DNA of 25,274 nt, from positions 1 through 25,274 of the IMG/VR virus record IMGVR_UViG_3300044217_004639; one strand, given 5' to 3'. Below, piece by piece: positions 1-18,863 of this stretch. Below the pieces are notes generated by a model, which was given only the letters and a program-made list of their open reading frames with translations, was not told the DNA's origin and did no database searches. Source of the DNA: a virus. Its lineage: Duplodnaviria > Caudoviricetes. Position numbers and translations under genes: made by a program. Numbering within the stretch: position 1 is the first letter of the stretch; each line of letters starts with the position of its first letter.

Positions 1-105
1 AGAATTGTGAATACAACACGGAGCATTAAATGATATCCATCCGGAAGGAGTTTTCTTACGAGCAGTAGGCAACGATGTCAGGATAGTCGACTGGATCAGG
101 TTCAT
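1..105 (-). CDS. 5' part of putative DNA primase (N-terminal Zn-binding region); runs off the left edge
   Basis: Not in the ORF track. Manual translation from ATG at 105: MNLIQSTILTSLPTARKKTPSGWISFNAPCCIHNS. The GWISFNAPCC segment resembles the N-terminus of primase-like proteins of large phages. A sigma70-like promoter lies directly upstream. Confidence 0.6.
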   Translation of the reverse strand, partial: MNLIQSTILTSLPTARKKTPSGWISFNAPCCIHNS

Positions 106-112
106 ACATTAT

Positions 113-141
113 AGTTTACGCTCTATAAAGTACTTTGTCAA
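113..141 (-). promoter_or_regulatory. sigma70-like promoter for the primase-like gene
   Basis: Minus strand TTGACA (141-136), 17-nt spacer, TAAACT (118-113), then 7 nt to the ATG at 105. Embedded in the 3' end of the upstream gene. Confidence 0.6.
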
Positions 142-919
142 TCTTTCCTGTGGTTGAGTCCGGGTTATTGCCCCAAATAAATCTTACGTTCTGGTAAACT
201 CCAGTGAAGGTAAAATAGCTTAAAGTTGAACTAGCTGAAAATGAAATAGTGCCGCCAGACTGTCCATCAACAGTAATATCAAAGAAATCATCATCATCTG
301 GAGTACTAGCCATGGTGCCTTGTACTCTGAAACTACCTGTAAAAGATGTTTTGTACACAGCAATTGTGTGCAGAGCTTTATTGTTGTTCATTCCAGGTTT
401 TGCGTCAATTGCTCCAGACTTTCTTTCAAGTGGCCCACCAGTGGAAAAAGTTGAAACACTTGTGCTAGGAACAAACTCAGGATACGCTCCGTCTAGTAGT
501 TCGATTGTTCCTGCCGCTGCGTAGCCTGTATCTGAATATGTTACTTCACGGCTATTATCTGATTTAACTTCACGCACTGCAAAACTATAAAATTTAGCAT
601 CTAAGCCTAATAGATCAGCCTCGGTAATTGTGCAACTTGCATCACCTTTGGTACTTGTAGTTGATCCGTCATCTAAAATCGTGAGTGTTTTGGTGATTAC
701 GGATTTTTTGGACTCCGTGTCTATCATATTAAACTCATACGTTTTGGATGTTATATCCTGAGCCTTTTGATCCTCGTTCTTAAAAGTAAAATTAAGCGGA
801 TTATCGACTCCTCTATGTAGTGTTATACGTCTATTGTACACGTTTGAGTTCCTTCCGTGATAACCACTTACATAAGCAATTACCAGCTGTGATAGTAAAT
901 ACCTTGATACTGTTTGCAT
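116..919 (-). CDS. probable virion structural protein (beta-rich, baseplate/BppU-like N-terminus)
   Basis: 267 aa, rich in T/S/G/D, with alternating beta-strand patterns (LHRGVDNPLNFTFKNEDQK). Preceded by a perfect TATAAATA late-promoter motif. Confidence 0.55.
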   Translation of the reverse strand: MQTVSRYLLSQLVIAYVSGYHGRNSNVYNRRITLHRGVDNPLNFTFKNEDQKAQDITSKTYEFNMIDTESKKSVITKTLTILDDGSTTSTKGDASCTITEADLLGLDAKFYSFAVREVKSDNSREVTYSDTGYAAAGTIELLDGAYPEFVPSTSVSTFSTGGPLERKSGAIDAKPGMNNNKALHTIAVYKTSFTGSFRVQGTMASTPDDDDFFDITVDGQSGGTISFSASSTLSYFTFTGVYQNVRFIWGNNPDSTTGKIDKVLYRA

Positions 920-951: not shown

Positions 952-1326
952 ATGAACGAAATTTTTAAAACACTGAGGGATAAATTTCCATTTTTGAGCC
1001 TGATTCGTAAGGGCGATTTGGAATTTGTTGGTATTGTGCAAAATCAAGATCAAAACGTGATTAGTTTTTACGATTACGGACGGTTATATTCGCCTCAGGA
1101 TAAAATGTATTTTTTAAAATGTGGCGAGACATGGTGGTACGAGTCAAATAGAAAATTACCAATTAACATATTTTTAAAAGGTGACTTTAGGTACTTTAGA
1201 TCAACTCTTATTACTTTAAACTCTAAAGATATATCAATTGTTGAAGGCCCTACAGTGAAGCTTTCTGAAATTTCAAAGAAACGGGTAAAGCGTAGAACAA
1301 TCCAACTTGTAAGAAAACCTACTTAA
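952..1326 (+). CDS. hypothetical phage protein
   Basis: 124-aa ATG ORF filling the space between minus-strand genes, with WWYESNRKLPINIFL and a basic C-terminus. Confidence 0.75.
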   Translation: MNEIFKTLRDKFPFLSLIRKGDLEFVGIVQNQDQNVISFYDYGRLYSPQDKMYFLKCGETWWYESNRKLPINIFLKGDFRYFRSTLITLNSKDISIVEGPTVKLSEISKKRVKRRTIQLVRKPT

Positions 1327-1453
1327 TTTCTTTTTTACCAATTAATTTTTCAAAGTATATTGTAAGAAAATTATTTCTTTGATAATGATTAAAATTGGAA
1401 ACTAGTCTGGATTTTTTTGGTTTTTTATTTTTCCGAGTTTTTTGACGTTGCAT
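1319..1453 (-). CDS. small basic hypothetical protein (44 aa)
   Basis: Below the ORF-track cut-off. MQRQKTRKNKKPKKSRLVSNFNHYQRNNFLTIYFEKLIGKKEIK* starts inside the end of the mini-DnaE gene and exactly fills the 1327-1424 gap. Confidence 0.5.
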   Translation of the reverse strand: MQRQKTRKNKKPKKSRLVSNFNHYQRNNFLTIYFEKLIGKKEIK

Positions 1454-2024
1454 CAAAACTATATTTACCTTCTGAAATCAAATTCATCTGGACAACTATT
1501 GCGTGAGCATATGCTATTGCGTGCGACTTCTTGAAAAAATAACTTCCATCTGCTGGTTTTCTCCATACATTAGTTTTTATATCATCCCAATTTTGTTTCA
1601 ACAGATACCTTTTCGCAGGTCTTATTATAGCAAGCACTGAAGCTAGTTGTTCTATAGTTTTTGGTTTTAATTTTGACACTATGTCAAAATGTCCATTCAA
1701 ATGAAATAATTCATCAACAATTTTTTTGTCTTCAAGCATATCCCAATCAGGCTCTTTGATCATTAGTTCTACAAGCTCTTGTTCGCTTGCTACGTGTTTG
1801 TATATGTTAACGTTCAACATATCAATTTTGAAATAGCCTCGGTCTTCAGCAACTTTATAATCTAATGACGAGTGACCTGTTACTGGATGCTGAGGCACAG
1901 AATGAAAGTATACTCCAGTCTTGTGTTTGTCAGTTTTATCTTCTTTGATAATTGTAGCGGGTGTGTGCTTAAATAATTTTAGCACTCCATCTCTATCAAA
2001 AAAATCAATATCTACGTCGGGCAT
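1425..2024 (-). CDS. minimal DNA polymerase III alpha (DnaE)-like catalytic-core protein
   Basis: DnaE motifs in the correct order: MPDVDIDF (PDxDxDF), HKTGVYF (HAAGV), YFKIDMLNV (KxDxLGL), LASVLAIIRP (ALxRP), YFFKKSHAIAYA (YxFNKSHAxAY). Only 199 aa. Confidence 0.85.
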   Translation of the reverse strand: MPDVDIDFFDRDGVLKLFKHTPATIIKEDKTDKHKTGVYFHSVPQHPVTGHSSLDYKVAEDRGYFKIDMLNVNIYKHVASEQELVELMIKEPDWDMLEDKKIVDELFHLNGHFDIVSKLKPKTIEQLASVLAIIRPAKRYLLKQNWDDIKTNVWRKPADGSYFFKKSHAIAYAHAIVVQMNLISEGKYSFDATSKNSEK

Positions 2025-2266
2025 TAGTGTATGCTACCTTTTCTTTGCTTGTCATAGTAATCAACAAATTCTTGTTTACTGCCAGGCTTTAGTATTTCTA
2101 TCATGTCTAATAATTTTTTATATCCGCCACTGTTTTGTACTTTGCTATTCATATCTGGTATACAAACTTTTCCAACCTCACCATCTGCTTTGATATGTAT
2201 TATGAAGTCACCTTCTTCAAGATCAAATTCTAGTTCTTCATTGCTTTCAAAATTTATTCTACTCAA
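2024..2266 (-). CDS. hypothetical protein (80 aa)
   Basis: Track ORF 2024..2290. The more likely start is TTG at 2266, with AGGAGG (2278-2273) 6 nt upstream. Its stop overlaps the mini-DnaE start (TAATG). Confidence 0.7.
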   Translation of the reverse strand: MSRINFESNEELEFDLEEGDFIIHIKADGEVGKVCIPDMNSKVQNSGGYKKLLDMIEILKPGSKQEFVDYYDKQRKGSIH

Positions 2267-2945
2267 TTTTTGCCTCCTTTGCTGTTTCAATTACAAACAG
2301 ATGATCAGCTGGATAGCTTTTAAATTTGTTAGCCCAAAATTCAGGACTTATAAATCTTTGTGTCATTTGTAATTGTTCGTCACTAAATGATTGTAACATT
2401 TTTTTCCCAGCCGGACAACCTAGCAATAGCCATGGAGAAATCTTTCCTTGTTGTATGTGTTGCACTGCTCTAGTGGTGTTGACTAATCTAAAGTAGTCTG
2501 ACCACTGTGCTTTTTGTTCGGCAGCCCAATCCATCATTGTGGCAATTGATCTTTGTAACGCAGACTCCACAGGTTCTACTTTCAATGTGTCAATAAGATA
2601 TGTTTCGTACAAACCGTCTCTTGCCCAGTGATCAAGTTTTATTTTTGATAGTATTACGTAATCTATATATTTTTCTGGATACAACGGATTTATATGCATC
2701 ATGAACCTGCCAAATTTTACAAACGCATTATAGTATGAACTCTTACAAAAATCATCGTATGTTTTTTCTTTTGTATTGTTTTGATGGATTTGATAGAATC
2801 GCTGAAAAACTAAAAAAGCATTCTGCACCCATTTTTCATTTTTTTGCAAGTGTCGACGTTTTGGTTCACACATGTGGACCTGTAGTGTTCGTTCACGTGT
2901 GAAAGTTTTGCCACAGAATGGACATTTATTTAGAGTTGATTCCAT
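2259..2945 (-). CDS. zinc-finger protein (N-terminal C2H2/C2HC-like finger) of the replication block
   Basis: CPFCGKTFTRERTLQVHMC fits C-x2-C-x3-F-x5-L-x2-H. The rest looks helical and its function is unknown. Confidence 0.75.
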   Translation of the reverse strand: MESTLNKCPFCGKTFTRERTLQVHMCEPKRRHLQKNEKWVQNAFLVFQRFYQIHQNNTKEKTYDDFCKSSYYNAFVKFGRFMMHINPLYPEKYIDYVILSKIKLDHWARDGLYETYLIDTLKVEPVESALQRSIATMMDWAAEQKAQWSDYFRLVNTTRAVQHIQQGKISPWLLLGCPAGKKMLQSFSDEQLQMTQRFISPEFWANKFKSYPADHLFVIETAKEAKIE

Positions 2946-3384
2946 GTGACTCCAATAACTCTTCTAGTTCTTTATCTGTTATAATTTTATCTAGTGTTTC
3001 AAGATCTGACTCTTTCATGTTTGGATATAGTTGCTGTAGCTGTTTCAAACTTTTATTTGGCACACGTTTCATAGGCTTTATCCAAGGATGAAACTGTTGC
3101 TTCAAAGCACCACACATAGAAGTGAGTATCCAACAAAGTTTTTTGTGTTTACCGGATAGCACAAATAAATTTTTATTCACACACTCATTGACCATTTCTA
3201 CGTAGTGTTCAATATAAAAACTATCCTTTGAAGATACACTTGATGCATATCTCATCAACATGTATGGTGAATATAATGATTTTTCGTGATCGTCAATACG
3301 GTCAAAGTAGTCTTTGTTTCGAAAGTCTACTGCCTTAAGACCATTCCTTAGTTCGAAAAATTTCCTTTTGCTTTTCTCTGTCAT
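2926..3384 (-). CDS. clamp loader small subunit (T4 gp62-like)
   Basis: 152 aa. YSPYMLMRYASS, QFHPWIK and a C-terminal helical 'LEELLESHG' pattern are typical of gp62-like subunits. Replication context. Confidence 0.65.
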   Translation of the reverse strand: MTEKSKRKFFELRNGLKAVDFRNKDYFDRIDDHEKSLYSPYMLMRYASSVSSKDSFYIEHYVEMVNECVNKNLFVLSGKHKKLCWILTSMCGALKQQFHPWIKPMKRVPNKSLKQLQQLYPNMKESDLETLDKIITDKELEELLESHGINSK

Positions 3385-3595: not shown

Positions 3596-4082
3596 AGTCC
3601 ACTTGTTCGCATTGTCTTGAAATGTCTTTTACAAAATATGCACAAACTGGTTTTGGCCCATCTGTTAAAGGCACAGCTAACATCTGGCCAGATTTAATTT
3701 TGGGGAAGTACCATTTCACCTCTGTGTATATGTCAACCACGTCAATGGGAAAGAAATCTGGCTTACTACTACTCAATGGGTTGAATGTGAATGCATCAAA
3801 TCCTCTGTCATTCAAACTTGTTATAGGCAAGACGTGCATTTCTGGCTGTCCTTGCTCGCCTATTAACATCTTCCAGTCCAATGGCATTTTAACTTTGAAT
3901 TTGCCAATTTCTAAAACTGCGGCCGGTGCATTAAAACTTTCTAAAAAAATTAAAGGAATGTAAAAGAAGTCAGGATTCTCTGGATCTGAATTATCTAAAA
4001 CTGCAAATCTTAATTTTTCGTCTACCCATTCTGGTATTTTTTCTAGTTGATATGTTTTATCATCAAGTGTTAGTATTTTCAT
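3579..4082 (-). CDS. hypothetical beta-rich protein, possibly a degenerate Hint-like fold
   Basis: 167-aa ATG ORF overlapping the helicase stop. The ORF call is solid; the fold is inference only (see findings). Confidence 0.7.
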   Translation of the reverse strand: MKILTLDDKTYQLEKIPEWVDEKLRFAVLDNSDPENPDFFYIPLIFLESFNAPAAVLEIGKFKVKMPLDWKMLIGEQGQPEMHVLPITSLNDRGFDAFTFNPLSSSKPDFFPIDVVDIYTEVKWYFPKIKSGQMLAVPLTDGPKPVCAYFVKDISRQCEQVDYGSVW

Positions 4083-5535
4083 ATAAATCTGTGTCTATCT
4101 TTTCTATATTATACGGATAATTTGCCTCTTTGTAAAACTTTTTTCTTTGTGTGAGATGCCTTCTAGCAAACTTACAAGCACTGGTGATATCCCATATACT
4201 CACTGAATCTTTGTCTTCGGCCTTACGTATGCCTCTACCAATTGATTGTATGACTCTCACAAAGCTTTTTCCTGGCTCTATAAGAACCAAATTGAAAATA
4301 CGAGGAATATTAATACCAACAGCGGCCACTCCATATGTGGCGATAATAACTTTAGTTTGAGCAGTAGATACTTCATCATAGTGTTCTTTCCTTTCCATGT
4401 TTTTGGTGGCGCCTCTTATAAAGACACTGTCCTTAATTTTCTTTTCTAATATTTCGCCTGCTGATATTCTATCAACAAGTATCAGTGTGTTTCCCGATGT
4501 GCTGATATCATTTATTGTTTGAGCTACCCAACTCATACGTTTAGGATCAGTTGTTAGCCATTTTAGTTCTTCGGCATAGCTTCTAAACTCTAATATATCG
4601 TTTGTCTGTAATACATTGACATGACAGTTAGCTAATACTCCTTTGTCCTGTAGTTCTTTGGCAGGTATTTTGTTCGTCACTTCACCTATTGATACTTTGA
4701 TACCCATGTATTCATAATCTTGTTTTGGAACTGTGCCTGTAAGTCCCCAACGTATTTGACAATGTGCAAACGGCCCAGTCAACATCCTTTTAAGTACATC
4801 TGCCTTAGCCATGTGTACTTCGTCAACTATTACAGTGTTTATGCCTTGGATAAATTCTTTAAAGTCTGTGCTGTGTTCGTCCTTTGATCTTTTTTCTAGC
4901 ACATTTAAACTTTGCCAAGTTGCAATTGTATTGTATCGACCTATCTCTTTTCTATCTCCATAATAGACTCCTGTATCTAAATTACAAGTCAAAAAGTCTT
5001 CTTCTGTTTGTGTAACAAGACTTTTATTTGGCACGATGGTTAGTGTGCGACCGTAAGGCTCGACCAACTGGCACAGTGCCGCAGTAATAATGGTCTTACC
5101 TGCACCAGTGGCGATCTCTTGTATGCTTTGCGGATTTTCAATAAATTTATTGATTGTCTCCACTTGATAGTCTCGTAATTCAATGCCTTGTCCTGCACTA
5201 GGATGATTCTTTGGCCATTTTATATGTGCCAAATAATTTTTATCAATAGCTGTAAATTCAAGATCTTGTTTGGGGCGTTGATCAACTAGATCAACATATA
5301 CTCCACCGTCCTCTAAAATTGGCAAAATTTGATCTACAAGATACAAATATGTTGTGCCGCCAAGTCCAAAAAATGCTATCTTACCGTCCCACCGGCCAAG
5401 CTTTACAGCTGGTAGATGATAAGCATAAGGAACTTGATATTTAAATTTTTGATGTAAACGTTGCCGCCATTTGAGATCTAAATTCTCAAATTTAACATTT
5501 ACTTGATCTTTAATTACCAGTCTGCAACTGCTCAT
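4063..5535 (-). CDS. uvsW: UvsW-like superfamily 2 DNA helicase
   Basis: Q motif LRDYQ, Walker A ATGAGKT, DEVH, motif III GLTGT, GINIP, motif VI QSIGRGIR. 490 aa with an N-terminal WDGKI segment as in UvsW. Confidence 0.9.
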   Translation of the reverse strand: MSSCRLVIKDQVNVKFENLDLKWRQRLHQKFKYQVPYAYHLPAVKLGRWDGKIAFFGLGGTTYLYLVDQILPILEDGGVYVDLVDQRPKQDLEFTAIDKNYLAHIKWPKNHPSAGQGIELRDYQVETINKFIENPQSIQEIATGAGKTIITAALCQLVEPYGRTLTIVPNKSLVTQTEEDFLTCNLDTGVYYGDRKEIGRYNTIATWQSLNVLEKRSKDEHSTDFKEFIQGINTVIVDEVHMAKADVLKRMLTGPFAHCQIRWGLTGTVPKQDYEYMGIKVSIGEVTNKIPAKELQDKGVLANCHVNVLQTNDILEFRSYAEELKWLTTDPKRMSWVAQTINDISTSGNTLILVDRISAGEILEKKIKDSVFIRGATKNMERKEHYDEVSTAQTKVIIATYGVAAVGINIPRIFNLVLIEPGKSFVRVIQSIGRGIRKAEDKDSVSIWDITSACKFARRHLTQRKKFYKEANYPYNIEKIDTDLYENTNT

Positions 5536-6893: not shown

Positions 6894-7358
6894 ATGGAAA
6901 AGCGTACACAAAACACACGTAAATCTTACAAAAGACAGCTTAAAAACAAACTGTCAGAAACAGCTGATTTGGCTTACTTCAAGCCCACAAATGCGATTGC
7001 AGTGTATTGGTTTAGAAGACTTAATCATCTGTTATTTAATGGTAAATTAGGACGTGTGCATATTGAAGTCAAAAAACTTCACCATGACTGGGGTAGATGT
7101 GTAGCTTTGTGGGATAATAGAAAAACTCCAAAAGGGAAATTTAATCAAAGAAAGATTCCGCATCATATACCAGTAACTTATTATATCCAGTTGCACGTAA
7201 AGTTTGACAGTTGGAAAGATTTCATTGAAACTTTAGCACATGAAATGGTACACTTGTACCAAATGACTATTGTCAAAGACCCTTATTCAAATCATAATAA
7301 ACACTTTTATGCGTTTACTAAAAAATTTATCAATGCTGGGCTGAAACTACATCGTTAA
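6894..7358 (+). CDS. SprT-like zinc metalloprotease
   Basis: TLAHEMVHLYQ (HExxH) with a downstream H in SNHNKHF, and FRRLNHLLFNGKL, typical of SprT. ATG at 6894. Confidence 0.85.
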   Translation: MEKRTQNTRKSYKRQLKNKLSETADLAYFKPTNAIAVYWFRRLNHLLFNGKLGRVHIEVKKLHHDWGRCVALWDNRKTPKGKFNQRKIPHHIPVTYYIQLHVKFDSWKDFIETLAHEMVHLYQMTIVKDPYSNHNKHFYAFTKKFINAGLKLHR

Positions 7359-8076
7359 ATTTTTCATAAGAAATCACGTGACTATTTTTTAAGTCTGTGC
7401 CTGTTTGTAAATGGTTAAGGAACTCAGGCGGATTATCATGCACAATTGTAAAGTTACAGTATGGACGCATCTTAAGATAATCTCTGAACCATTTTAACCA
7501 ACCTTCAAAAATTGTGTCACTGTGTCGATCGCCGTAACAGTCTGTGCCTTGATACATGTTATTGAATTTGTTTCTACCGTATTCTCTGAAGTCAAATCCT
7601 ATTAGGTACAAGTTTTTATGTCCATGCACACACGCTGTAGATATAGCTTGATTGCCGCTAATGGTGTGTGTGTTCCATGGAATCAAATGCACCTTATCCT
7701 TTGCATAATTTCTATTTACATGCAAAGACGGTGCGTAATGGATTGTGTTTTCCATAACATTATCTTTACACATGGCCTCTGTCATCTGTGTATCAACACT
7801 GAAAATAAAGTCAGGCATGAAGTCCCTATAAACTGCATTACAGCCGTATGTTTGTCCTGTCTTTGACAATTTGGATAAATCAAAATTTTTACGTGAAGGG
7901 CCATTACCTATTATGTAGGCATTGCCTCTTGGCTCTGCTTTTACTCGATCTTCATAAAATTTTTTCTCAAAGATTTTTTTACCCTGACGTATGATTGTAC
8001 GTACTATTATTTCTTCACCGAGATATTTTTTCCATACTATTGGCTTTATTTCTTTTATACCAAATTGGTTAGACAT
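7330..8076 (-). CDS. MAF/DUF115-like (sialyltransferase-type Rossmann) glycosyltransferase-related protein
   Basis: AYIIGNGPSR, YGCNAVYR, PDFIFSVD, SGNQA and LYLIGFD motifs. Confidence 0.7.
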   Translation of the reverse strand: MSNQFGIKEIKPIVWKKYLGEEIIVRTIIRQGKKIFEKKFYEDRVKAEPRGNAYIIGNGPSRKNFDLSKLSKTGQTYGCNAVYRDFMPDFIFSVDTQMTEAMCKDNVMENTIHYAPSLHVNRNYAKDKVHLIPWNTHTISGNQAISTACVHGHKNLYLIGFDFREYGRNKFNNMYQGTDCYGDRHSDTIFEGWLKWFRDYLKMRPYCNFTIVHDNPPEFLNHLQTGTDLKNSHVISYEKFNDVVSAQH

Positions 8077-8938
8077 ATTTTTCTTCTAATCTTTTTTTAA
8101 TCCTTTGCCATGGTATACCTTGTTCAATTTCATCTGGAAACCATTCTGTATATGATAGCTGATTACACCAATTTTGTCTATCAGGCATAACAGGATTTTC
8201 AATATCTTTATAATCTGTATTACCAATGTCATAGCACAAACTTGATTCACTAACAAAGACCGGTATGCCATTGAACACTGCTTGCATGGCAGGATTGCTG
8301 CTGTGGTTAACTACTGTCCATGCATTCTCAAAAACTTTGTTTAGGTCTGTATCGTCATAAGTGTTATGGTCTCTCTTTGGCCCTATAATTTTTACATTTC
8401 TAAATTTAGTCGTATCTATTGCCACACGATGTCTCGGATGTGGACGGATAACAATTGGTTTTTCTGTGTGTTTTCTTATTTTCTGTATTTGTTCTTCTAT
8501 CCATTTTGTCATTGGCGGATTGTTACGCCATTGATGACTGTTACTGTGTTGTCCACAAATTATGATGTTGTCTCCTGTTTGTTTCCAAGGTTTTAGTGAT
8601 GTGTGAAATTTTTTCCATCTATCATCATCAAACTGTTGATTTGCAAAGTCAGCTTCTCTGTTTATTCCGTTAATTGCAATTTTAAAAGTTTCATTTCTTT
8701 TAATGCCACCAACTTCTATAACCACCACTGCTTTGTTTTTGTTTGTATATCTATTCCATATAGGCCTATAGCCCGACATTCTACCTGACCATAAAACGGA
8801 CCATATTACAGCTACATCTGCGTCAGTTTCTTGATTAACAAAAAGTTGTTCATTGTTATTTTCTAGACTGTTTATAAATTTTTTAAATATATCTTTACTG
8901 TTCAAAGGCCCATATTGAGGCCATATTTCAATTTTCAT
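8069..8938 (-). CDS. KpsS/KpsC-like GT-B glycosyltransferase (paralogue 1)
   Basis: IVIRPHP, VVNHSSN..MQAVFNGIPVFV and a C-terminal IENP..DR..W...LSY..W..DEI..G shared with three other ORFs in this window. Confidence 0.65.
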   Translation of the reverse strand: MKIEIWPQYGPLNSKDIFKKFINSLENNNEQLFVNQETDADVAVIWSVLWSGRMSGYRPIWNRYTNKNKAVVVIEVGGIKRNETFKIAINGINREADFANQQFDDDRWKKFHTSLKPWKQTGDNIIICGQHSNSHQWRNNPPMTKWIEEQIQKIRKHTEKPIVIRPHPRHRVAIDTTKFRNVKIIGPKRDHNTYDDTDLNKVFENAWTVVNHSSNPAMQAVFNGIPVFVSESSLCYDIGNTDYKDIENPVMPDRQNWCNQLSYTEWFPDEIEQGIPWQRIKKRLEEKYV

Positions 8939-9818
8939 TTATATCCTTTTTTGCATCAAATTTTATTCCTGCAAACGGATCATAACTTTCAACATTCTTC
9001 CAATATGTTTCATTACGAGTGCTTTTTAGATCACTGGCTGAACTTTTACCTTTTGCCTTTCTTTTGCCTTTCATATGATCGAGATATGCCCCTAGCACAC
9101 TATTAATAAAGATGTGATGTCCTTTTGCACCAGCGCCTTTTCCTATGTCAACTCCGTGTTCTGGCGCAACTCTTTTTAGAACTTGCCAAAAAATATAACT
9201 GTCGTGCCATTCTAATTCTTTAAATATTGTATCTTGTTTATACAAATTGGTCCATGTATCCATAAATTTTTTGATTAACACATGCCGTCTATTATAGCAT
9301 ACCCATCCGCATTCTGGATATTTGTTTCCACGACCAAGATAATTTACAAGTTTATCAAATGGCAGTAAATTTGTGACAAAATCTTTTGGGATTGATCGAA
9401 ACGTATAGGTGTCAGCATCTAACCAAAGCACATAATCAACGTCAATATTTTTTATTGCATGATCGACCGCAAAAGTTTTATGAGCAAATCTTACTGCGTC
9501 CCATAGGTAGCTTCCCTTACCACGGTCATTATTGCCAGCATTTGGATGCCTCCTAGCCCCGCCAGCTATCTCTTGTAGTTCACCATTTGCAACTGGATCA
9601 TTCTTATGTCTATTTTTAAATGCTACCAAATCTGGATTGACTTTTTCAGTATTGACATATTCTATTTTTTCATGATGCAGATCTGGAGTTGGCCCTTCGT
9701 GGTACGCAGTAATTTTTACGTTGTCAGGCCAATAATCAATATGACTTTGTAACATCCTTTTGGCATACACGTCCCAACGATTTTGTGGAAAAGTAGTAAT
9801 TACTTGTAGACTTGGCAT
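8928..9818 (-). CDS. GT-A nucleotide-diphospho-sugar transferase
   Basis: FAHKTFA followed by YVLWLDADT (DxD), WHDSYIF and DHMKG. Confidence 0.75.
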   Translation of the reverse strand: MPSLQVITTFPQNRWDVYAKRMLQSHIDYWPDNVKITAYHEGPTPDLHHEKIEYVNTEKVNPDLVAFKNRHKNDPVANGELQEIAGGARRHPNAGNNDRGKGSYLWDAVRFAHKTFAVDHAIKNIDVDYVLWLDADTYTFRSIPKDFVTNLLPFDKLVNYLGRGNKYPECGWVCYNRRHVLIKKFMDTWTNLYKQDTIFKELEWHDSYIFWQVLKRVAPEHGVDIGKGAGAKGHHIFINSVLGAYLDHMKGKRKAKGKSSASDLKSTRNETYWKNVESYDPFAGIKFDAKKDINEN

Positions 9819-9823
9819 AAAAT

Positions 9824-9831
9824 TATTTAAT
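9824..9831 (-). promoter_or_regulatory. late-promoter-like motif
   Basis: Minus strand ATTAAATA, 5 nt before the ATG at 9818. Confidence 0.5.
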
Positions 9832-11554
9832 AGTTTGCAATCTTAAAGGCTTCAAACCAGGTTGCCCACATCATGTCTATCGCTAACCACTTGCCTGTTT
9901 TTTGTGTAATTTTCATGTTTGGATCCATCTTGTGTTTCATTTTTTGTTCATATAAATTTAACAGACTTGGATTTTGCTTGATCCAATATGCCATCGGTGC
10001 TGTCCAACCAGTTTTACCTTTATTGATAATGTAACTTGGTAGCACATTCTTATATGCATCTCTACTCATGTGTTTCAATTTTTTTGATATTTTTTGTTTA
10101 CTATTAATACTAAAACAGTATTTCATAAATTGTTTTGATGCTAAAGGATACCTGCCCTCCATACTATATGCCATACCAAATTTATCATTCCTAATCAACA
10201 TGTCCTCTGGACATATTGTTACACATTCCAAAGCACAAAAGCTACCTAACGGATCTTGTTCATTGTAGAGTGTATCAGGAAACTGCTTTATAAATTCTTG
10301 TAACACATCATCAGCACTGTGGATGTTTTCGTTTACTTTTGTTGCAGGCTTCTGTTGCGTTACTAAAACTTTGCAAATATCTTTCCACGACATTGCTTTA
10401 TTTGAAAAGTCATGTAACAACTTTCCATGCCGAGGATAACCACACATAAGCTCATCACCTAGATCTCCAGCAATCGTAACTTTTATATTATGATCTTTCA
10501 TAACTTTATTAGTGTATAAATTTGCAGGTAATGTTGGAGTTCTTATTATCTGTTCAACACTCGAGACCGATTGATTCCAATATGATGCATAAATTTCAGG
10601 TGTGATTGGTATCTCTGTGTGATTGAATTTAAAATGTTCTGCCAATCTTTTTGCCATGTTAGCATCTTCATTGTAATCTTCTTCTCTCGTGTTTGGATCC
10701 GGTACAAACCTTGTTGTAAATGAATTCACTGTGCCTGTAATATCCAAAAGTTCTTTAGATATCATAGTGCTATCCATTCCACCACTTAAAAATAATCCAA
10801 TCTTTTTGTCACCAATGCTGCAATTTTTTACGCTGCGATTTACAACTTGCTTAAATTCTATAGGATCGTAATTGTAGTCATTCGTTGGCTTGATGAACTC
10901 TCTATAATATTTTTGAATTTTTTTATGATGTGTGTCATAGATTAATGTTTCGCCTGGCAGTAATTTTTTTATATTATTAAAAAAAGTATTACGTAAAGGA
11001 TTATTACTCATGTAATGCCAAATACTGTGACTCAGTTTATCTAACTTATGAGAATTTGGCACCTTGTCTAACAAACCTCGAACCTCGCTTCCAAACACAA
11101 GTCCTTCTTTAATCTCTGCATAGTACAGTGGTTTAATTCCAGCATGATCTCTACTCAATATTAGCTTGTTCTTCTTAGGTTGGTAGTAGGCAAATGCATG
11201 CATAGAATCTATTTCATGAACAAACTTTGCGCCAAATGTATCAAGGCCCCATGCTAGTAATTCAGTGTCACAGCCAGTGATACCTGCAAAGCCTATATTT
11301 TTAAATCGTTGTTTCAGATCATAATAGTTGAATATTTCACCGTTATATACTAACCAGTTGCCTTTTGGAGTTTTCCATGGTTGCACTGCCACCTTTGGGT
11401 TGCCCATAATGGATAATAGGTTATGACCTAAAGTCATTTTATAATCAGGATCCCACCAAACTTTTTGTGCGTCAGGTCCTCGGTGCTTACATTTTCTAAT
11501 ATAATTTTGAATAAAGACGGGGTCGTGATCGGTTATGCCATAGATACCACACAT
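9827..11554 (-). CDS. asnB: asparagine synthase (glutamine-hydrolysing)-like amidotransferase
   Basis: N-terminal MCGI nucleophile, NGEIFN, DTE, RDHAGIKPLYY, PP-loop LSGGMDS, GDLGDEL..GY, DKFGMAYSMEGRYP. Confidence 0.9.
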   Translation of the reverse strand: MCGIYGITDHDPVFIQNYIRKCKHRGPDAQKVWWDPDYKMTLGHNLLSIMGNPKVAVQPWKTPKGNWLVYNGEIFNYYDLKQRFKNIGFAGITGCDTELLAWGLDTFGAKFVHEIDSMHAFAYYQPKKNKLILSRDHAGIKPLYYAEIKEGLVFGSEVRGLLDKVPNSHKLDKLSHSIWHYMSNNPLRNTFFNNIKKLLPGETLIYDTHHKKIQKYYREFIKPTNDYNYDPIEFKQVVNRSVKNCSIGDKKIGLFLSGGMDSTMISKELLDITGTVNSFTTRFVPDPNTREEDYNEDANMAKRLAEHFKFNHTEIPITPEIYASYWNQSVSSVEQIIRTPTLPANLYTNKVMKDHNIKVTIAGDLGDELMCGYPRHGKLLHDFSNKAMSWKDICKVLVTQQKPATKVNENIHSADDVLQEFIKQFPDTLYNEQDPLGSFCALECVTICPEDMLIRNDKFGMAYSMEGRYPLASKQFMKYCFSINSKQKISKKLKHMSRDAYKNVLPSYIINKGKTGWTAPMAYWIKQNPSLLNLYEQKMKHKMDPNMKITQKTGKWLAIDMMWATWFEAFKIANY

Positions 11555-12537
11555 TATAAACCTAATTTATTTTTGAATCTTTTATATACTGTGCCGTTTT
11601 TAATTTCTTTTATGCTCCACATTTTGTATCCAAGATCGTGAAGCCATTGTGTTCTATCTGGATAGATTGGATCTTCTATTTTCGTCAGATCTGTATTTGC
11701 AACCGGCCAACATAATGCAAGATCAGATGTAACAAATGTTGGTATACCTCGCACACAGCTATCTACGCTGGCAGTTGAATTGTGTGTCACTACCGCATGG
11801 CAGTTTGTGATTGCTTCTTGGAAATGAAAACGATAATACTTTTTTTCATCACCAATGAAATGTTTTTTTCCAATCTGTAATTCAATATCTTTTGGAAATT
11901 CACTTTGCCTTTTCGAAATACTGTCAACGTGATTTGGGTGTGGACGCACTAAAAATCGTCTCTTCGTAATTGGTCTCAATTTTTTGTAAACTGAATTAAA
12001 CCATTCAATTGGATCCAGCTCATTCATACTCCAATTATCACTTGGTTGTAACACAAATAGTATAGGATCCTCTTCACTTGACTTTCTCCATGACTCATGC
12101 TTTACGTTGAATTTGTTCTTTAACATTTCCCATCTGTCTGGTGGACTATTATCTGATAGGAAGTTTCCATCGTTCATGGGTGTATACAGAGAAACTCTAA
12201 AATGGTGATCTGGGGAAGTAGATACATTTCCAAAACTTGACAGTACACCACCGTCAAACGTAATAAGTGGTATCTTTTTTTCTCTACATCTATTTGCTAA
12301 TTCTCTTCTGCGTCCTTTTGTGTGATGCATCTGTTTGTCGCCTCCATAACCAAACATCGCTGCCATTGGTGCTGTTGGCTCCATTTCGCCTGGCACAGTA
12401 GGACCTGATCTATTTTCATTAACAATAACAGCTTCATCACCTGCTGCCCGTATGCCTTCTGCTAGTTGATATAATAGGTCATAACTATTGCCACGTCTTC
12501 GATCTTTTACCGTCCTTCTAAATATTTCAACTTTCAT
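11554..12537 (-). CDS. KpsS/KpsC-like GT-B glycosyltransferase (paralogue 2)
   Basis: LQPSDN, LVRPHP, VVTHNSTASVDSCVRGIPTFV, IEDPIYPDRTQWLHDLGY. Confidence 0.65.
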   Translation of the reverse strand: MKVEIFRRTVKDRRRGNSYDLLYQLAEGIRAAGDEAVIVNENRSGPTVPGEMEPTAPMAAMFGYGGDKQMHHTKGRRRELANRCREKKIPLITFDGGVLSSFGNVSTSPDHHFRVSLYTPMNDGNFLSDNSPPDRWEMLKNKFNVKHESWRKSSEEDPILFVLQPSDNWSMNELDPIEWFNSVYKKLRPITKRRFLVRPHPNHVDSISKRQSEFPKDIELQIGKKHFIGDEKKYYRFHFQEAITNCHAVVTHNSTASVDSCVRGIPTFVTSDLALCWPVANTDLTKIEDPIYPDRTQWLHDLGYKMWSIKEIKNGTVYKRFKNKLGL

Positions 12538-13315
12538 CGCAGTCCTTTCTAAAAAATATAACCTCCATCATTGCTTTCAATCTTTTTCTATTGATATAAA
12601 AATTATATTTTTCTTTGTGTATGTCACATAGTTTTCTTATTTTTTCAAACGATTCGTCAAAAGACCCGTTCAGTCCTAACTCCATCTCTGTGACCCAAAA
12701 TTTACAATCAATAGTTTGTAGTTCGAGGCCAACATCATACCATAGGCCTTCAACATCAGTTTTTAATATATCAATGCTATCCCATCCAATATCTTCTAAA
12801 ATTGTTGTAATGTTTTTACAATCTACTTCAACATAATTATTTGGATCATCAAATGCACCTGCAAGTGAAAAACTTCCTAATGCTTGTTCTGGTCTTTTAA
12901 TTCCAGGCTCCGTCTTATAATAAAATTTCATTTTGCCATTTTGAGGAGCATAAGCACAAGGAGTAAATTTTATATTATTTTGTACTATTTGTTTGTTCAA
13001 TGTGCGTGCATTTGGTATTTCATTAAACTGTCTATATCCGCCTTTTAAAAGTATTTGATTGATATTTTTAATAGTATAAGGTGTAGGATCAAATAGTCTT
13101 ACATCTAAGTTCATGTTATCAAAACAAATTAATTTTTCAAAATTCGCATCTCCTCCTACTCCAAAACTAAGAACTTTTTTAGATTCTTTAACAAATTTTT
13201 CAGGCACATGATAGTTTCTATACACTTTGAAGGATTGATTGGTAAAAAGTTCTTGTTCGAATAGCCTTATACGTTCAACTATTTCTTTGTTTTCTGGTTT
13301 AAGTCTATCCGCCAT
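12527..13315 (-). CDS. FkbM-family SAM-dependent methyltransferase
   Basis: VLSFGVGGDANFE, LFDPTP, IDILKTDVEG. Confidence 0.8.
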   Translation of the reverse strand: MADRLKPENKEIVERIRLFEQELFTNQSFKVYRNYHVPEKFVKESKKVLSFGVGGDANFEKLICFDNMNLDVRLFDPTPYTIKNINQILLKGGYRQFNEIPNARTLNKQIVQNNIKFTPCAYAPQNGKMKFYYKTEPGIKRPEQALGSFSLAGAFDDPNNYVEVDCKNITTILEDIGWDSIDILKTDVEGLWYDVGLELQTIDCKFWVTEMELGLNGSFDESFEKIRKLCDIHKEKYNFYINRKRLKAMMEVIFFRKDCDES

Positions 13316-14120
13316 TTAGCATTCTCCAAGCAGTTCCGTTTGCCATTTCTTCAAGTGTCCAATTATTATAAGCTAAATTGGAAAATAATGCAACTCTATC
13401 TTCGTACTTTGGATTTTCAATCTTAGTTAAATCTGTTTCAGATATTGGTAGTGCCGCAGAATTTTCCTTGTCGCAAAACACAGGAACTCCGTTTTGAAAA
13501 CTTTCTACCATAGTATTGCTGTTGTATGACACACATGCAAAATATTTTGTCCAATCAATTCTACCTTTATGATTTGTTGGTTTGTCAACTTTAATAGTTG
13601 CTCCAACACGATCTTTTGTCACAGTTGGATTGTATGGCTTTTCTCTAACATCAATAGGACGATCTGTGTGTTTTTTTAATATTTGCAATGTGTCCTTAAG
13701 CCAATTTTCTTGTTTGAAAAAATTTGCAATTGAATTAGTAGGCGGTAAAACTAAAATACTGCGTCCATTTTTTTGCCATGGCTTTATATCCAGTTTAAAA
13801 AATTTTTCATATCTATCAGATTTAGTATGTGTAATTTTGTTTTGACAATGTGCATTTTTTGTTATTCTTAGCCAGTGTGGTGTATCATGTGCATTAGTAA
13901 AATAACCATGATCCATAAAATAAAAATCCTTCTGTTCTCTCATGCACCATTTATATACTTCGCCTGATCCAGCTAGAATTCCGTACATAGCCAAATTTTC
14001 TTTAGGCAAAGTTTTTAGATCTCTGAATTTGTAAATTGTATTTCTCCCTGAAGATCCTTTTACAAATGCATCAACATAACGTTGTGTTCTTGGTTTGGTA
14101 GTGTGTATTCCTGCTATCAT
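13305..14120 (-). CDS. KpsS/KpsC-like GT-B glycosyltransferase (paralogue 3)
   Basis: FMDHGYF, IDVREKP, VSYNSNTMVESFQNGVPVFC, IENPKYEDR..LAYNNWTLEEMANG. Confidence 0.6.
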   Translation of the reverse strand: MIAGIHTTKPRTQRYVDAFVKGSSGRNTIYKFRDLKTLPKENLAMYGILAGSGEVYKWCMREQKDFYFMDHGYFTNAHDTPHWLRITKNAHCQNKITHTKSDRYEKFFKLDIKPWQKNGRSILVLPPTNSIANFFKQENWLKDTLQILKKHTDRPIDVREKPYNPTVTKDRVGATIKVDKPTNHKGRIDWTKYFACVSYNSNTMVESFQNGVPVFCDKENSAALPISETDLTKIENPKYEDRVALFSNLAYNNWTLEEMANGTAWRMLNGG

Positions 14121-14860
14121 TTGATCTCTTGTACGCTGTACATAGATTTGTTACTTCGCCTGCTATATTCTGCTATAATGTTCACACTTCTTCGGTGTAA
14201 CGTGGCATTGGTACGAGGAGTCACTCCGTGTATTGCATTGGCACTGTTATTTGCAAACATGACAAATGTATTTTTTTTATATGGCACCGTTACTGCTATT
14301 GAACCAAGATCTTCTTTGTAAATGTGTCTACCTTTAGCCATATCAACTTTGGATACGGTATTTTTTGCATGATAGATCTGAAAGTCGCCACCGCTACTAG
14401 TGTCGTTTTCATATGGCATATAAAGAAGTCCAGCATACATCTCTCTTGGATTATCAATGTGTGGTGTACGAGAGCTTACTGTAATTGGTTTGTGCATAAC
14501 AGTTTGGCAGTCAGTCCACACTGTTGTATCTTTACTGGCCCATCCTCTTGGACCTAGTGTTGGATCTTTATCTTTAAAGTAATCACCAAATAACTCAGAT
14601 ACTTCGTTGTAAAAATCTTTTGATGTATGATACTCAGTAAATTCTTTCCATAAAGCACTAACCACATTTGGCTTCAACATTTCGTCAGCTTTCAATCTAT
14701 AACATATACCATTATCATATGGAGTAGTGGCTAATAGTTTATCTGTTGGCCATTGGCTTTCTAATTCATTATATAATTTTTCTGGTAGTGCGTTGTCAAC
14801 AACCACATGCGGATACGGATGTAATTGTAGTTTTGGTTTTGATTGTAGGACTGAAAGCAT
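14117..14860 (-). CDS. 2OG-Fe(II) oxygenase
   Basis: PYPHVVVDNALP N-terminus, PHID (HxD), GGDF, NTFVMF, AIHGV (distal His), RRSVN (2OG-binding Arg). Confidence 0.85.
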   Translation of the reverse strand: MLSVLQSKPKLQLHPYPHVVVDNALPEKLYNELESQWPTDKLLATTPYDNGICYRLKADEMLKPNVVSALWKEFTEYHTSKDFYNEVSELFGDYFKDKDPTLGPRGWASKDTTVWTDCQTVMHKPITVSSRTPHIDNPREMYAGLLYMPYENDTSSGGDFQIYHAKNTVSKVDMAKGRHIYKEDLGSIAVTVPYKKNTFVMFANNSANAIHGVTPRTNATLHRRSVNIIAEYSRRSNKSMYSVQEIK

Positions 14861-14864
14861 AATG

Positions 14865-14872
14865 TACTTAAT
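14865..14872 (-). promoter_or_regulatory. late-promoter-like motif (variant)
   Basis: Minus strand ATTAAGTA, 4 nt before the ATG at 14860. Confidence 0.35.
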
Positions 14873-15953
14873 CTAAGAGTTTAATTAATTCAGGAATGTT
14901 GATTTCTAAATCAACCATATCCTTACTTTTTTTATTTTTAGGTTTTGCTTTGTTAATTTTTTTTGCTTTTGCCAAATAAACTTTGTGGTTAAGCCCTAGA
15001 TGGTGTGACAGAATTGGATATACTTTTTTATCAATAAATTTTTTATGTTGAAGCTCAATTACTTTAGTACCAGGCTGACACCAAAGAGTGTTTACAAGTC
15101 CAGCACCGTGTGGTGAAAGTATGTGCGAAGCTTCTTTAAATATTTTCACTTGCTCTGTCAATGTCAAATTATCTAGCGTAATTTGTTCCCAACCTTTTAA
15201 GGCCAAAACTAGTTGTTCTTGATTGGAAATATTTCTATTTTCAGCGTCCTTTCTTGTTAAGAATATTTTCCTTGTTGGTTTTGGTTGCCCTGGCACTACA
15301 ACATTTCCTAAACGCCTAAGCCATTTGGGCATGTTTGGCGATATTATTCCGTCTGTATGATTACTTAATGAAGGCACAACTAAATGATAAAATCTCCATG
15401 TTTCATTTTTTGGCATAACATAATATTTTAATTCAGGAAAAAATTCTGTTGCAACTTTGTCAAAATATTTACTTGGATTAGATAAAATAAAAATAAATTT
15501 AGTAAAATTTGTGGCCCACCTTTTTTCTAAAAGCCTAAATTTTGAAACTATATCAATCCAAATGTGCCACGGATTATTTGCACTATATTCGTCAATTGGC
15601 AACCAAACATATTTCCATGTAGTGTCTTGAAACTGTTTTGTAATTGGTGGCATGTTTATTTCAATAGTATCAGCCCATTTTGTAAAAAAGTTATGTACCT
15701 TCTTTGGTTTGTCTCGATATTTGGAAATCAGTGGCCATACGTGATTGGTTATCATCTTTCTATCTTCAGTAATAAGCACTGGTAAACTTGCCACAGAACA
15801 ATTATGAAAATCCGCAACAAAAGTTGGCATACTTGTAAAATTAGTAACAGGATTTAAATTAGAATATTGGACATTATAATCATAAGAATCGTCAATTATA
15901 TCCCATTGATGTAAAAAATATTTTATATCAGATATATTTTGAACAGTTTGCAT
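14868..15953 (-). CDS. GT61 (DUF563) family glycosyltransferase
   Basis: NPWHIWID, KIFLTRKDAENRNISNQE, EQVKIF, SPHGAGLVNTLWCQPGTKVIEL. Confidence 0.85.
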   Translation of the reverse strand: MQTVQNISDIKYFLHQWDIIDDSYDYNVQYSNLNPVTNFTSMPTFVADFHNCSVASLPVLITEDRKMITNHVWPLISKYRDKPKKVHNFFTKWADTIEINMPPITKQFQDTTWKYVWLPIDEYSANNPWHIWIDIVSKFRLLEKRWATNFTKFIFILSNPSKYFDKVATEFFPELKYYVMPKNETWRFYHLVVPSLSNHTDGIISPNMPKWLRRLGNVVVPGQPKPTRKIFLTRKDAENRNISNQEQLVLALKGWEQITLDNLTLTEQVKIFKEASHILSPHGAGLVNTLWCQPGTKVIELQHKKFIDKKVYPILSHHLGLNHKVYLAKAKKINKAKPKNKKSKDMVDLEINIPELIKLLD

Positions 15954-15976
15954 TATTAATAATTATACTATAAAAT
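15948..15976. promoter_or_regulatory. overlapping divergent promoters
   Basis: Plus strand TTGCAT (15948-15953), 17 nt, TAAAAT (15971-15976), then 6 nt to ATG 15983. Minus strand TATAATTA (15967-15960), 6 nt before ATG 15953. Confidence 0.5.
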
Positions 15977-15982
15977 AGCATT

Positions 15983-18848: not shown

Positions 18849-18850
18849 TT

Positions 18851-18858
18851 TTTAAATA
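18851..18858 (+). promoter_or_regulatory. late-promoter-like motif
   Basis: TTTAAATA in a 15-nt gap, 5 nt before ATG 18864, with no Shine-Dalgarno. Confidence 0.5.
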
Positions 18859-18863
18859 GATAT

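What the first reader, a model, noticed from the sequence alone, without database searches (positions are those of the whole stretch)
1425..2024. Stand-alone 199-aa 'mini-DnaE': a family C polymerase stripped to its catalytic motifs
Seen: the protein starts exactly at PDVDIDF and keeps HKTGV, KIDML, AIIRP and YFFKKSHAIAYA in order, so all three catalytic Asp equivalents are present. It is an intact ORF translationally coupled to its upstream gene. Known: bacterial DnaE is >1000 aa with PHP, thumb, long fingers, clamp-binding and OB regions, and T4-like phages normally replicate with a family B polymerase. Here the N- and C-terminal regions are missing and the spacers between motifs are much shorter, which looks like streamlining rather than simple breakage. 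Inference: a minimal nucleotidyltransferase, for example a primer-extending or priming partner of the nearby primase, or a repair or template-independent polymerase. Short DnaE-like ORFs may already be annotated in related jumbo phages, so novelty would rest on function.
Basis: partly seen in the sequence, partly recalled or inferred. Interest (0 to 1): 0.8.

Follow-up and report, generated by a model that had tools for sequence, protein, structure and literature searches.

The report
Half of split phage mini-DnaE polymerase
This 199-residue gene of a marine giant phage is real and strongly conserved, but it is not stand-alone: it is the aspartate-bearing half of a two-gene, stripped-down relative of the bacterial replicative DNA polymerase described from sequence in 2021, which likely assembles with a partner encoded elsewhere and is predicted to add short stretches of DNA to primers beside the phage's main polymerase.

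Summary
The ORF, its motifs and the TAATG overlap are confirmed. 'Stand-alone' is not supported. The protein is the C-terminal unit of the split minimal Pol III alpha of group 2.2 jumbo phages (Iyer et al. 2021). A separate ~175-aa gene carries the GRGS nucleotide-binding motif and ends just before this protein begins. It was found in 6 of 6 isolate genomes searched, 11-182 kb away, and PolB was present in all 6. One natural 375-aa fusion exists. The partner is not on this contig (7% complete). The three catalytic Asp and the K553 equivalent are invariant in 85 of 85 diverse homologues; dN/dS is about 0.05; the fold matches family C. The steric-gate His is kept, while the thumb helices, most of the index finger, PHP, OB and clamp motif are gone. 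Possibly new: R390 is Glu/Asp throughout, the N-unit ends in Lys/Arg, and two new conserved lysines lie near the nucleotide site. Best reading: a distributive, dNTP-selective heterodimer extending primase's RNA primers for PolB (inferred). No bench study was found. This scan found the same family before on other DNA.

The parts
1425..2024 (-). C-terminal (Asp-bearing, template-binding) unit of the split minimal Pol III alpha, 199 aa; corresponds to E. coli DnaE ~400-795 with large internal deletions
2001..2021 (-). PDVDIDF: D3 and D5 = E. coli D401 and D403
   Evidence: 85 of 85 each in diverse homologues; E. coli residue roles
1908..1964 (-). Predicted beta-hairpin (residues 21-39) ending in HKTGV (H34 = H511); likely the two thumb strands with the helical thumb deleted
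   Evidence: AF2 strands E21-27 and E30-39; thumb strands 429-438 and 503-513 from bioRxiv passage; equivalence inferred; H34 84 of 85
1821..1829 (-). KID: K66 = K553 (primer phosphate), D68 = D555 (third catalytic Asp)
   Evidence: 85 of 85 each; hhalign to E. coli 541-642
1611..1622 (-). RPAK: R135/P136 = R639/P640 (templating-base contacts); K138 is a family-specific Lys at E. coli P642
   Evidence: R 83, P 85, K138 77 of 85
1521..1541 (-). YFFKKSH: Y162 = Y754, K165 replaces N757, S167/H168 = S759/H760 steric gate
   Evidence: H168 83 of 85; K165 Lys 78 + Arg 5 of 85; Y162 59 of 85
2024..2290 (-). Upstream 88-aa ORF, overlapping by TAATG; function unknown
   Evidence: present in 80 of 80 close loci
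2259..2945 (-). Conserved neighbour, 228 aa with an N-terminal C2H2-like zinc finger (PHROG 11058)
   Evidence: 80 of 80 close and 11 of 14 distant loci; Atlas search gave no usable name
2926..3384 (-). 152-aa neighbour; lead for a clamp-loader small subunit (gp62-like)
   Evidence: Atlas 0.92 to a cluster with PF16790 Phage_clamp_A in 11% of members; in phage Slicko01 the RFC gene lies four genes upstream of the C-unit, directly before a similar-sized gene
4063..5535 (-). UvsW-like DNA helicase of the same module
952..1326 (+). Convergent 124-aa gene (PHROG 11637), fixed neighbour, function unknown
   Evidence: 75 of 80 close and 14 of 14 distant loci
116..919 (-). Virion structural protein between the C-unit and the primase
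1..107 (-). 5' end of the DnaG-type primase (zinc ribbon), cut by the contig end

Best explanation
This gene encodes the C-terminal half of a two-gene minimal family C polymerase, which likely pairs with a separately encoded ~175-aa GRGS-bearing half (seen in relatives, inferred for this phage) to form a predicted template-directed, deoxy-selective, low-processivity enzyme that most likely extends the primase's RNA primers by a few nucleotides before the clamp-bound PolB would take over. Shown: homology, the split point, co-occurrence of the halves, conservation, purifying selection, presence of PolB and of an intact primase, and the fixed position near primase and helicase. Inferred: heterodimer formation; two-metal catalysis by D3/D5/D68 with R-G-S supplied in trans; rejection of rNTPs by H168; low processivity from loss of the thumb helices, OB and clamp motif; replacement of the lost R390/R396/R709/R710/K714/K715 charges by K138, K165 and the N-unit's terminal Lys/Arg; and the primer hand-off role. 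My odds: split half 0.93; active DNA polymerase 0.75; primer extension as its main job about 0.45.
For: Iyer et al. describe this split enzyme in group 2.2 phages beside PolB. N-unit found in RaK2 and Atu_ph07 and in 4 of 4 further isolates, including the 141-kb Slicko01. C-unit found in 12 of 24 long N-unit contigs, 5 of 6 rated complete; the sixth also lacks a primase hit. The N-unit aligns without gaps to E. coli 322-394 and stops there: the N393-equivalent is the last residue in 89 of 111 sequences. C-units have 1-11 residues before the first Asp in 84 of 85. Neither end carries intein sequence. A natural 375-aa fusion P0215 matches both PHROGs end to end. D3, D5, D68, K66 and P136 are present in 85 of 85 and H168 in 83 of 85 homologues at 32-52% identity. 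dN/dS median 0.047, max 0.13, over 878 of 1953 pairs. PolB found in 13 of 15 records (6 of 6 complete) and 4 of 4, ending in an FxxLF motif in 10 of 15 regions (clamp-binding role recalled). The mini halves lack such motifs. Primase keeps its zinc ribbon, EGPxDA and DRD. Gene order C-unit, convergent gene, one further gene (virion protein where annotated), primase, helicase holds in the window's twin contig, RaK2, Atu_ph07, Vibrio 2.275.O and Slicko01; 121Q shows it as far as the primase. [quoted passage not shown]
Against: The N-unit is not on this contig nor on 39 related partial contigs (at most 33% complete; the 10 hits were a different, unsplit DnaE), so the partner is inferred for this phage. 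No activity or binding was measured. Several cationic dNTP contacts of E. coli DnaE are lost: R390 is acidic, R396 falls in the split gap, and the R709-K715 helix is deleted. R390A alone costs 27-fold in E. coli. Y754 is kept in only 59 of 85. T4-type PolB extends RNA primers unaided (recalled), so the need for a second enzyme is unexplained. UvsW, UvsX, UvsY and gp32 are also in this window, so synteny fits recombination-dependent replication or repair equally well. The N-unit gene sits beside GroES-like and clamp-loader genes, not beside the primase. The fusion is one predicted protein whose contig I could not find.
Confidence: 0.45

Rival explanations
1. The same heterodimer is a gap-filling, D-loop-extending or lesion-bypass polymerase for recombination-dependent replication and repair rather than a primer extender.
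For: No proofreading or processivity parts; UvsW lies four genes upstream, and UvsX, UvsY and gp32 are in the window. [quoted passage not shown] A trimmed finger would loosen base selection (inference).
Against: Found in every isolate genome searched and kept in a 141-kb genome, which is more like a core replisome part. A second, unsplit compact DnaE beside an endonuclease III gene is patchy in the same clade (7 of 25 loci with at least 6 kb downstream) and looks like the optional repair enzyme.
Confidence: 0.28
2. The heterodimer is a repurposed nucleotidyltransferase with an altered substrate (modified nucleotide, DNA-end addition, or transfer to a protein), not a conventional polymerase.
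For: R390 is Glu/Asp in 110 of 111 N-unit sequences (the one Arg is a spurious reverse-strand match) and in 4 of 4 more isolates. N757 is Lys/Arg in 83 of 85 and there is a new Lys at 138. The index-finger helix is deleted.
Against: Primer-binding K553, template-contacting R639/P640, thumb H511 and steric-gate H760 equivalents are all kept, which points to a primer-template duplex and a dNTP. PolC also lacks Arg at the 390 position (recalled, not tested: the profiles did not reach PolC).
Confidence: 0.14
3. One reading: the 199-aa protein works alone as a minimal nucleotidyltransferase or priming enzyme.
For: All three Asp are on this chain, its model is confident alone (pLDDT 93.5), and no N-unit has been seen on this contig or its close partial relatives.
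Against: The GS motif and R362 are absent from this chain and present on a co-occurring gene that ends where this one starts. A fusion exists. The steric gate is kept and the primase is intact.
Confidence: 0.05
4. The halves are catalytically dead DNA-binding or scaffold subunits of the phage replisome.
For: Loss of several dNTP-binding cationic residues.
Against: Three Asp, K553 and GRGS are invariant across families at 30-50% identity, which a scaffold would not need.
Confidence: 0.06
5. Recent truncation or pseudogene of a full-length DnaE.
For: None beyond short length.
Against: ORF length from the match start is 195-204 aa in 80 of 80 close loci and dN/dS is about 0.05. 95 of 96 phage records cover at least 80% of the query. 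Among longer proteins only one probable chimera was found.
Confidence: 0.01

Closest known systems
Split minimal DNA polymerase III alpha of group 2.2 jumbo phages, C-terminal unit (Iyer et al. 2021, PMC7824862; PHROG 11778 with partner PHROG 11127; e.g. RaK2 gp411 + gp373, Atu_ph07 gp074 + gp316)
   Same: 53% identical to the Atu_ph07 and 41% to the RaK2 protein over about 185 aa, with the same length, motifs and gene neighbourhood.
   Different: New marine member. Its own N-unit and PolB lie outside the 25-kb contig and were not seen. Its near-identical twin contig also carries a second, unsplit compact DnaE.
Bacterial DnaE / Pol III alpha (E. coli 5fku/2hnh, Taq 2hpi/3e0d, M. tuberculosis 5lew/7pu7) and PolC (3f2b)
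   Same: Palm with three Asp, K553, H511, RP motif, and the Y/F-x-K-S-H helix with steric gate. The model aligns to E. coli 401-795.
   Different: Two chains. No PHP, thumb helices, R709-K715 helix, clamp motif or OB. R390 is acidic, R396 is missing and N757 is Lys.
B. subtilis DnaE as primer extender before PolC (PMC3664799, PMC5627055; search listing and abstract starts only)
   Same: Proposed division of labour: a family C enzyme extends RNA primers and hands off to the processive polymerase.
   Different: That enzyme is full-length and single-chain, and its role is shown. Here the role is inferred and the main polymerase is family B.
Split-intein DnaE of cyanobacteria and 'fractured' phage DnaE genes (recalled)
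   Same: A DnaE encoded in two genes.
   Different: No intein sequence at either end here, so any joining would be non-covalent; both pieces are also heavily trimmed.

Membership tests
Split minimal Pol III alpha of group 2.2 jumbo phages (C-unit) | Full-length homology to the ~190-200 aa proteins of group 2.2 phages | tested here: met
   PHROG 11778 E 7e-69; tblastn 53% to Atu_ph07, 41% to RaK2
Split minimal Pol III alpha of group 2.2 jumbo phages (C-unit) | Carries the Mg-binding Asp and template-binding subdomain only, without PHP, OB or other DnaE domains | tested here: met
Split minimal Pol III alpha of group 2.2 jumbo phages (C-unit) | N-terminal NTP-binding unit encoded by a distant gene of the same genome | tested here: inconclusive
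   Met in 6 of 6 isolates. Not seen on this 7%-complete contig or on 39 partial relatives
Split minimal Pol III alpha of group 2.2 jumbo phages (C-unit) | Family B polymerase in the same genome, T4-like replication set | tested here: inconclusive
   PolB in 13 of 15 and 4 of 4 related records. No window ORF is long enough for a PolB (longest 575 aa); gp32, UvsX, UvsY and UvsW are in the window
Family C DNA polymerase (DnaE/PolC) | Pol-beta-like palm with three catalytic Asp | tested here: met
   D3, D5, D68 in 85 of 85; structural matches are family C
Family C DNA polymerase (DnaE/PolC) | GS motif with R362 on the same chain | tested here: not met
   No such motif in any window ORF; it lies on the N-unit gene in relatives
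Family C DNA polymerase (DnaE/PolC) | PHP, full thumb, long fingers, clamp-binding motif, OB | tested here: not met
   Motif spacings; beta-clamp-like pattern in 1 of 97 C-units and 0 of 73 N-units
Family C DNA polymerase (DnaE/PolC) | Template-directed dNTP incorporation | not testable with these tools
   Needs biochemistry; no bench study found
Split-intein DnaE | Intein halves at the split point | tested here: not met
   N-units end at the N393-equivalent in 89 of 111; C-units have 1-11 residues before the first Asp in 84 of 85

The most novel reading that the evidence does not exclude
These T4-like giant phages run a two-polymerase fork: a ~370-residue, intein-free heterodimeric family C enzyme with a rewired nucleotide site (R390 turned acidic; the free C-terminal Lys/Arg of one chain and two new lysines of the other replacing the deleted finger arginines) acts as a Pol-alpha-like primer extender between a DnaG primase and a clamp-bound family B replicase. 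It would be by far the smallest working family C polymerase that I know of (recalled; not checked by a search).
Probability: 0.35. Interest if true: 0.7.

Novelty: new member of a known kind. Interest (0 to 1): 0.3.

Why it matters
The gene itself adds one marine member to a family in print since 2021. The open question is the function. If the two halves make an active enzyme, it defines the minimal catalytic core of family C polymerases, shows how a dNTP site survives loss of the finger arginines, and reveals a replication step that group 2.2 jumbo phages (RaK2-, PA5oct/Paride- and 121Q-like) do not share with T4. The residue map here makes that directly testable with two ~20-kDa proteins from cultured phages.

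Tried and rejected
Complex prediction of the cognate G008 pair was not available, so there is no verdict on binding. AF2 of the fusion P0215 as a single sequence gave pLDDT 35.7 and was uninformative. The contig of P0215 was not found (viral scan, metagenome scan; the cluster look-up could not be made), so a gene-calling or assembly artefact is not excluded. P0305 (350 aa, unrelated N-terminus, 2-kb contig) was set aside as a probable chimera. Pfam gave no hit for the window protein, and single-sequence PDB search gave nothing. tblastn of E. coli DnaE 271-405 against phages was swamped by full-length DnaEs. An overprinted +2 ORF, a lead from earlier notes, is absent here: the longest same-strand alternative frame is 34 codons. 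The idea that the N-unit C-terminus (LDIxEFLK) is a clamp-binding peptide is not supported, since it is the inherited DnaE LLFERFL pattern and differs from the PolB FxxLF ends. G009's primase hit without a C-unit is an unrelated small Toprim in an accessory region. The five largest close contigs lack the clamp-loader gene that usually neighbours the N-unit (no positive control in that call). RNA: a 582-nt contig from one seawater metatranscriptome matches 1438-2018 with no differences; this is one study, contigs only, and DNA is not excluded, so it is not counted as expression evidence. A genome-contig scan (10 of 64 parts) gave one hit in a MAG contig, not examined. PolC residue equivalents could not be checked. 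Paper search returned nothing.

Full report
Observation. The window is a whole 25,274-base linear virus record, rated 7% complete, 34.5% G+C. An intact 199-aa ORF lies at 1425-2024 on the minus strand with the five motifs in the order given. Against E. coli DnaE the motif spacings are 32/32/66/30 versus 111/42/83/118 residues, so the large deletions fall in the thumb and the index finger. The upstream 88-aa ORF overlaps by TAATG. Pfam gives nothing. PHROG 11778 'DNA polymerase' covers it at E 7e-69. There are 4370 homologues among 4411 candidates of 109-349 aa and 96 phage records, 95 covering at least 80% of the query; the listed full-size ones are mostly 280-490 kb jumbo phages. Only about 35 codons of the primase are in the window. 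Locus L005, 99.94% identical over 6868 bp, continues with a 335-aa primase, a 477-aa DnaB, an endonuclease III-like gene and a further DnaE.

It is under selection and keeps the catalytic core. Eighty of 80 close loci give ORFs of 195-204 aa. Among 63 unique sequences, 878 of 1953 pairs had usable synonymous distances and gave a median dN/dS of 0.047, maximum 0.13 (the other pairs were saturated or nearly identical). From the query plus 150 representatives I kept 85 that were 175-240 aa and aligned almost end to end. D3, D5, D68, K66 and P136 are present in 85 of 85, H34 in 84, H168 and R135 in 83. The AF2 model (97 sequences, pLDDT 93.5) returns family C polymerases in the top 18 Foldseek rows, none below E 1e-3. 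The top 7 VIA rows are also family C: PolC 3f2b Z 10.1, rmsd 4.1, 198 aligned; Taq 9.7; E. coli 8.4 over 401-795; next unrelated row 4.4. By sequence profile the PDB matches are DnaE, not PolC.

It is half of a split enzyme. Iyer et al. 2021 (PMC7824862; passages and section 3.4.1 read; figures not held, supplement unreadable) describe a minimal Pol III alpha in group 2.2 jumbo phages. It is split into an N-terminal NTP-binding and a C-terminal Mg- and template-binding protein on distant genes, beside a family B polymerase. I tested this. PF07733 found separate 172- and 177-aa genes in RaK2 and Atu_ph07 (the three partial contigs gave no N-unit). PHROG 11127 found one in 4 of 4 further isolates, including the 141-kb Alishewanella phage Slicko01. 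Conversely, 12 of 24 long contigs with an N-unit hold a C-unit, 5 of 6 among those rated complete. The sixth, G011, has no C-unit by three searches and no primase hit either, so it is probably incomplete, but it remains an exception as rated. Of 29 phage records matching an N-unit, 27 are among the listed C-unit rows; not all 96 rows were shown. The halves lie 34-182 kb apart in 14 genomes and 11-31 kb in the four added isolates. The N-unit aligns without gaps to E. coli 322-394 and ends there, while the C-unit begins at 400. Neither end carries an intein. P0215, one 375-aa predicted protein, joins both units in DnaE order; I could not find its contig. Against this reading for this phage: no N-unit on the window or on 39 related partial contigs of at most 33% completeness, where all 10 hits were a different, unsplit DnaE (read in full for G002, judged by frame length or position for the others).

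Active-site map. A 2026 preprint on E. coli Pol III ternary structures (10.64898/2026.06.29.735100; passages and section 9 read) lists the dGTP contacts, and Vaisman et al. 2021 (PMC8485763; passages) identify H760 as the steric gate. Kept on the N-unit: R362-G363-S364, invariant in 73 of 73 (the scan pattern selected for it). R362A abolishes E. coli activity, so the 199-aa chain cannot work alone in the DnaE manner (inference). Kept on the C-unit: D401, D403, D555, K553, H511, R639, P640, F756, K758, S759 and H760, with Y754 in 59 of 85. Lost: R390 is Glu in 90 and Asp in 20 of 111 unique N-unit sequences; the single Arg is a spurious reverse-strand match in L092, whose true ORF reads EFLK. 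R396 falls in the gap, and the R709-K715 helix is deleted. Gained: Lys/Arg at the N393 position in 103 of 111, as the very last residue in 89 (positions not selected by the scan patterns, and 4 of 4 more isolates agree on Glu and Lys/Arg); Lys/Arg for N757 in 83 of 85; and Lys at P642 in 77 of 85. I infer that these replace the lost charges; no structure with nucleotide was available. I did not find these changes in the text of Iyer et al., but they may be in its figure or supplement.

Context. PolB is present in 13 of 15 records (6 of 6 complete) and 4 of 4 isolates. Fourteen of 15 fetched regions have DxxSLYP and DTDS in one ORF, and 10 end in FxxLF, which resembles the RB69/T4 clamp-binding tail (recalled). 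The mini halves lack such tails. The primase keeps its zinc ribbon and Toprim acidic motifs in the six aligned sequences. The C-unit sits in a fixed block with a UvsW-like helicase, a gp62-like lead, a zinc-finger protein, a convergent 124-aa gene, primase and helicase. The N-unit sits near GroES-like and clamp-loader genes.

Mechanism. The likeliest picture is a non-covalent heterodimer that binds a primer-template junction through the retained thumb strands, K553 and RP. It would select dNTPs by the His gate, add a few nucleotides and let go, lacking the thumb helices, OB, clamp motif and proofreading. With an intact primase to make RNA primers and a clamp-bound PolB for processive synthesis, I commit to primer extension and hand-off, as B. 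subtilis DnaE does before PolC (abstract starts only), at about 0.45. Gap filling or repair is the main rival (0.28), then a repurposed transferase (0.14). The patchy compact DnaE beside endonuclease III in this clade slightly favours a core role for the conserved split enzyme.

Novelty. The family is in print and in PHROGs. Five literature searches found no bench study; the library lacks most subscription papers. PMC11242549 (passages) only annotates Pol III subunits in a related phage. Earlier notes of this scan reached the same reading on other genomes; they are not independent evidence. Their overprinted-gene lead does not apply to this copy. Verdict: new member of a known kind, interest 0.3. 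The rewired-site primer-extender reading has probability about 0.35 and would merit 0.7.

Noticed in passing
L005:9925-11298; L086:499-2190 (P0306): The window's near-identical twin contig and 15 of 80 close loci (7 of 25 with at least 6 kb downstream) carry a second, unsplit 563-aa DnaE without a PHP domain, beside an endonuclease III-like gene in the loci read, a few kb past the helicase. It keeps R390, R396 and RRA (R709/R710) equivalents, but reads FGLCRAH at the steric-gate helix.
   Followed up: partly
P0215 (protein only): 375-aa natural fusion of the N- and C-units with a linker three residues longer than E. coli's; contig not found.
   Followed up: partly
L310/L337, OQ508956.1: The 141-kb Alishewanella phage Slicko01 keeps both halves 11 kb apart, an RFC gene four genes upstream of the C-unit, primase/helicase and a two-ORF PolB: a small genome with the group 2.2 replication core.
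   Followed up: partly
Homologues below 70% identity: An ATG-started +2-frame ORF of 62-67 codons at codons 92-160 occurs in 8 of 37 distant homologues but not in the window's gene, nor at that place among 99 close ones.
   Followed up: partly
window 2926-3384 (-): Likely clamp-loader small subunit (gp62-like), unannotated in PHROG 11758; Atlas lead PF16790 in 11% of cluster members.
   Followed up: partly
window 952-1326 (+) and 2259-2945 (-): A convergent 124-aa gene (14 of 14 distant loci) and a 228-aa zinc-finger gene (11 of 14) are fixed neighbours of the C-unit; both are of unknown function and are candidate partners.
   Followed up: no
window 7330-21664: A 14-kb island of ORFs that by eye resemble glycosyltransferases, an asparagine synthetase, FkbM methyltransferases, a 2OG oxygenase, SGNH hydrolases and an NDP-sugar epimerase (labels recalled, not searched), between the UvsW and UvsY/UvsX/gp32 blocks.
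   Followed up: no
A4 columns before W81 (N-unit residues 1-80): The first ~80 residues of the N-unit gave no DnaE match, yet have conserved positions; possibly a phage-specific interaction module.
   Followed up: no
G011 (L108): A 543-kb contig rated complete has the N-unit and a PolB in separated ORFs but no C-unit or primase hit.
   Followed up: partly
L338 (PBLX01000009.1): A 42%-identical C-unit on a 42-kb contig of a Legionellales MAG, possibly a binned phage fragment.
   Followed up: no
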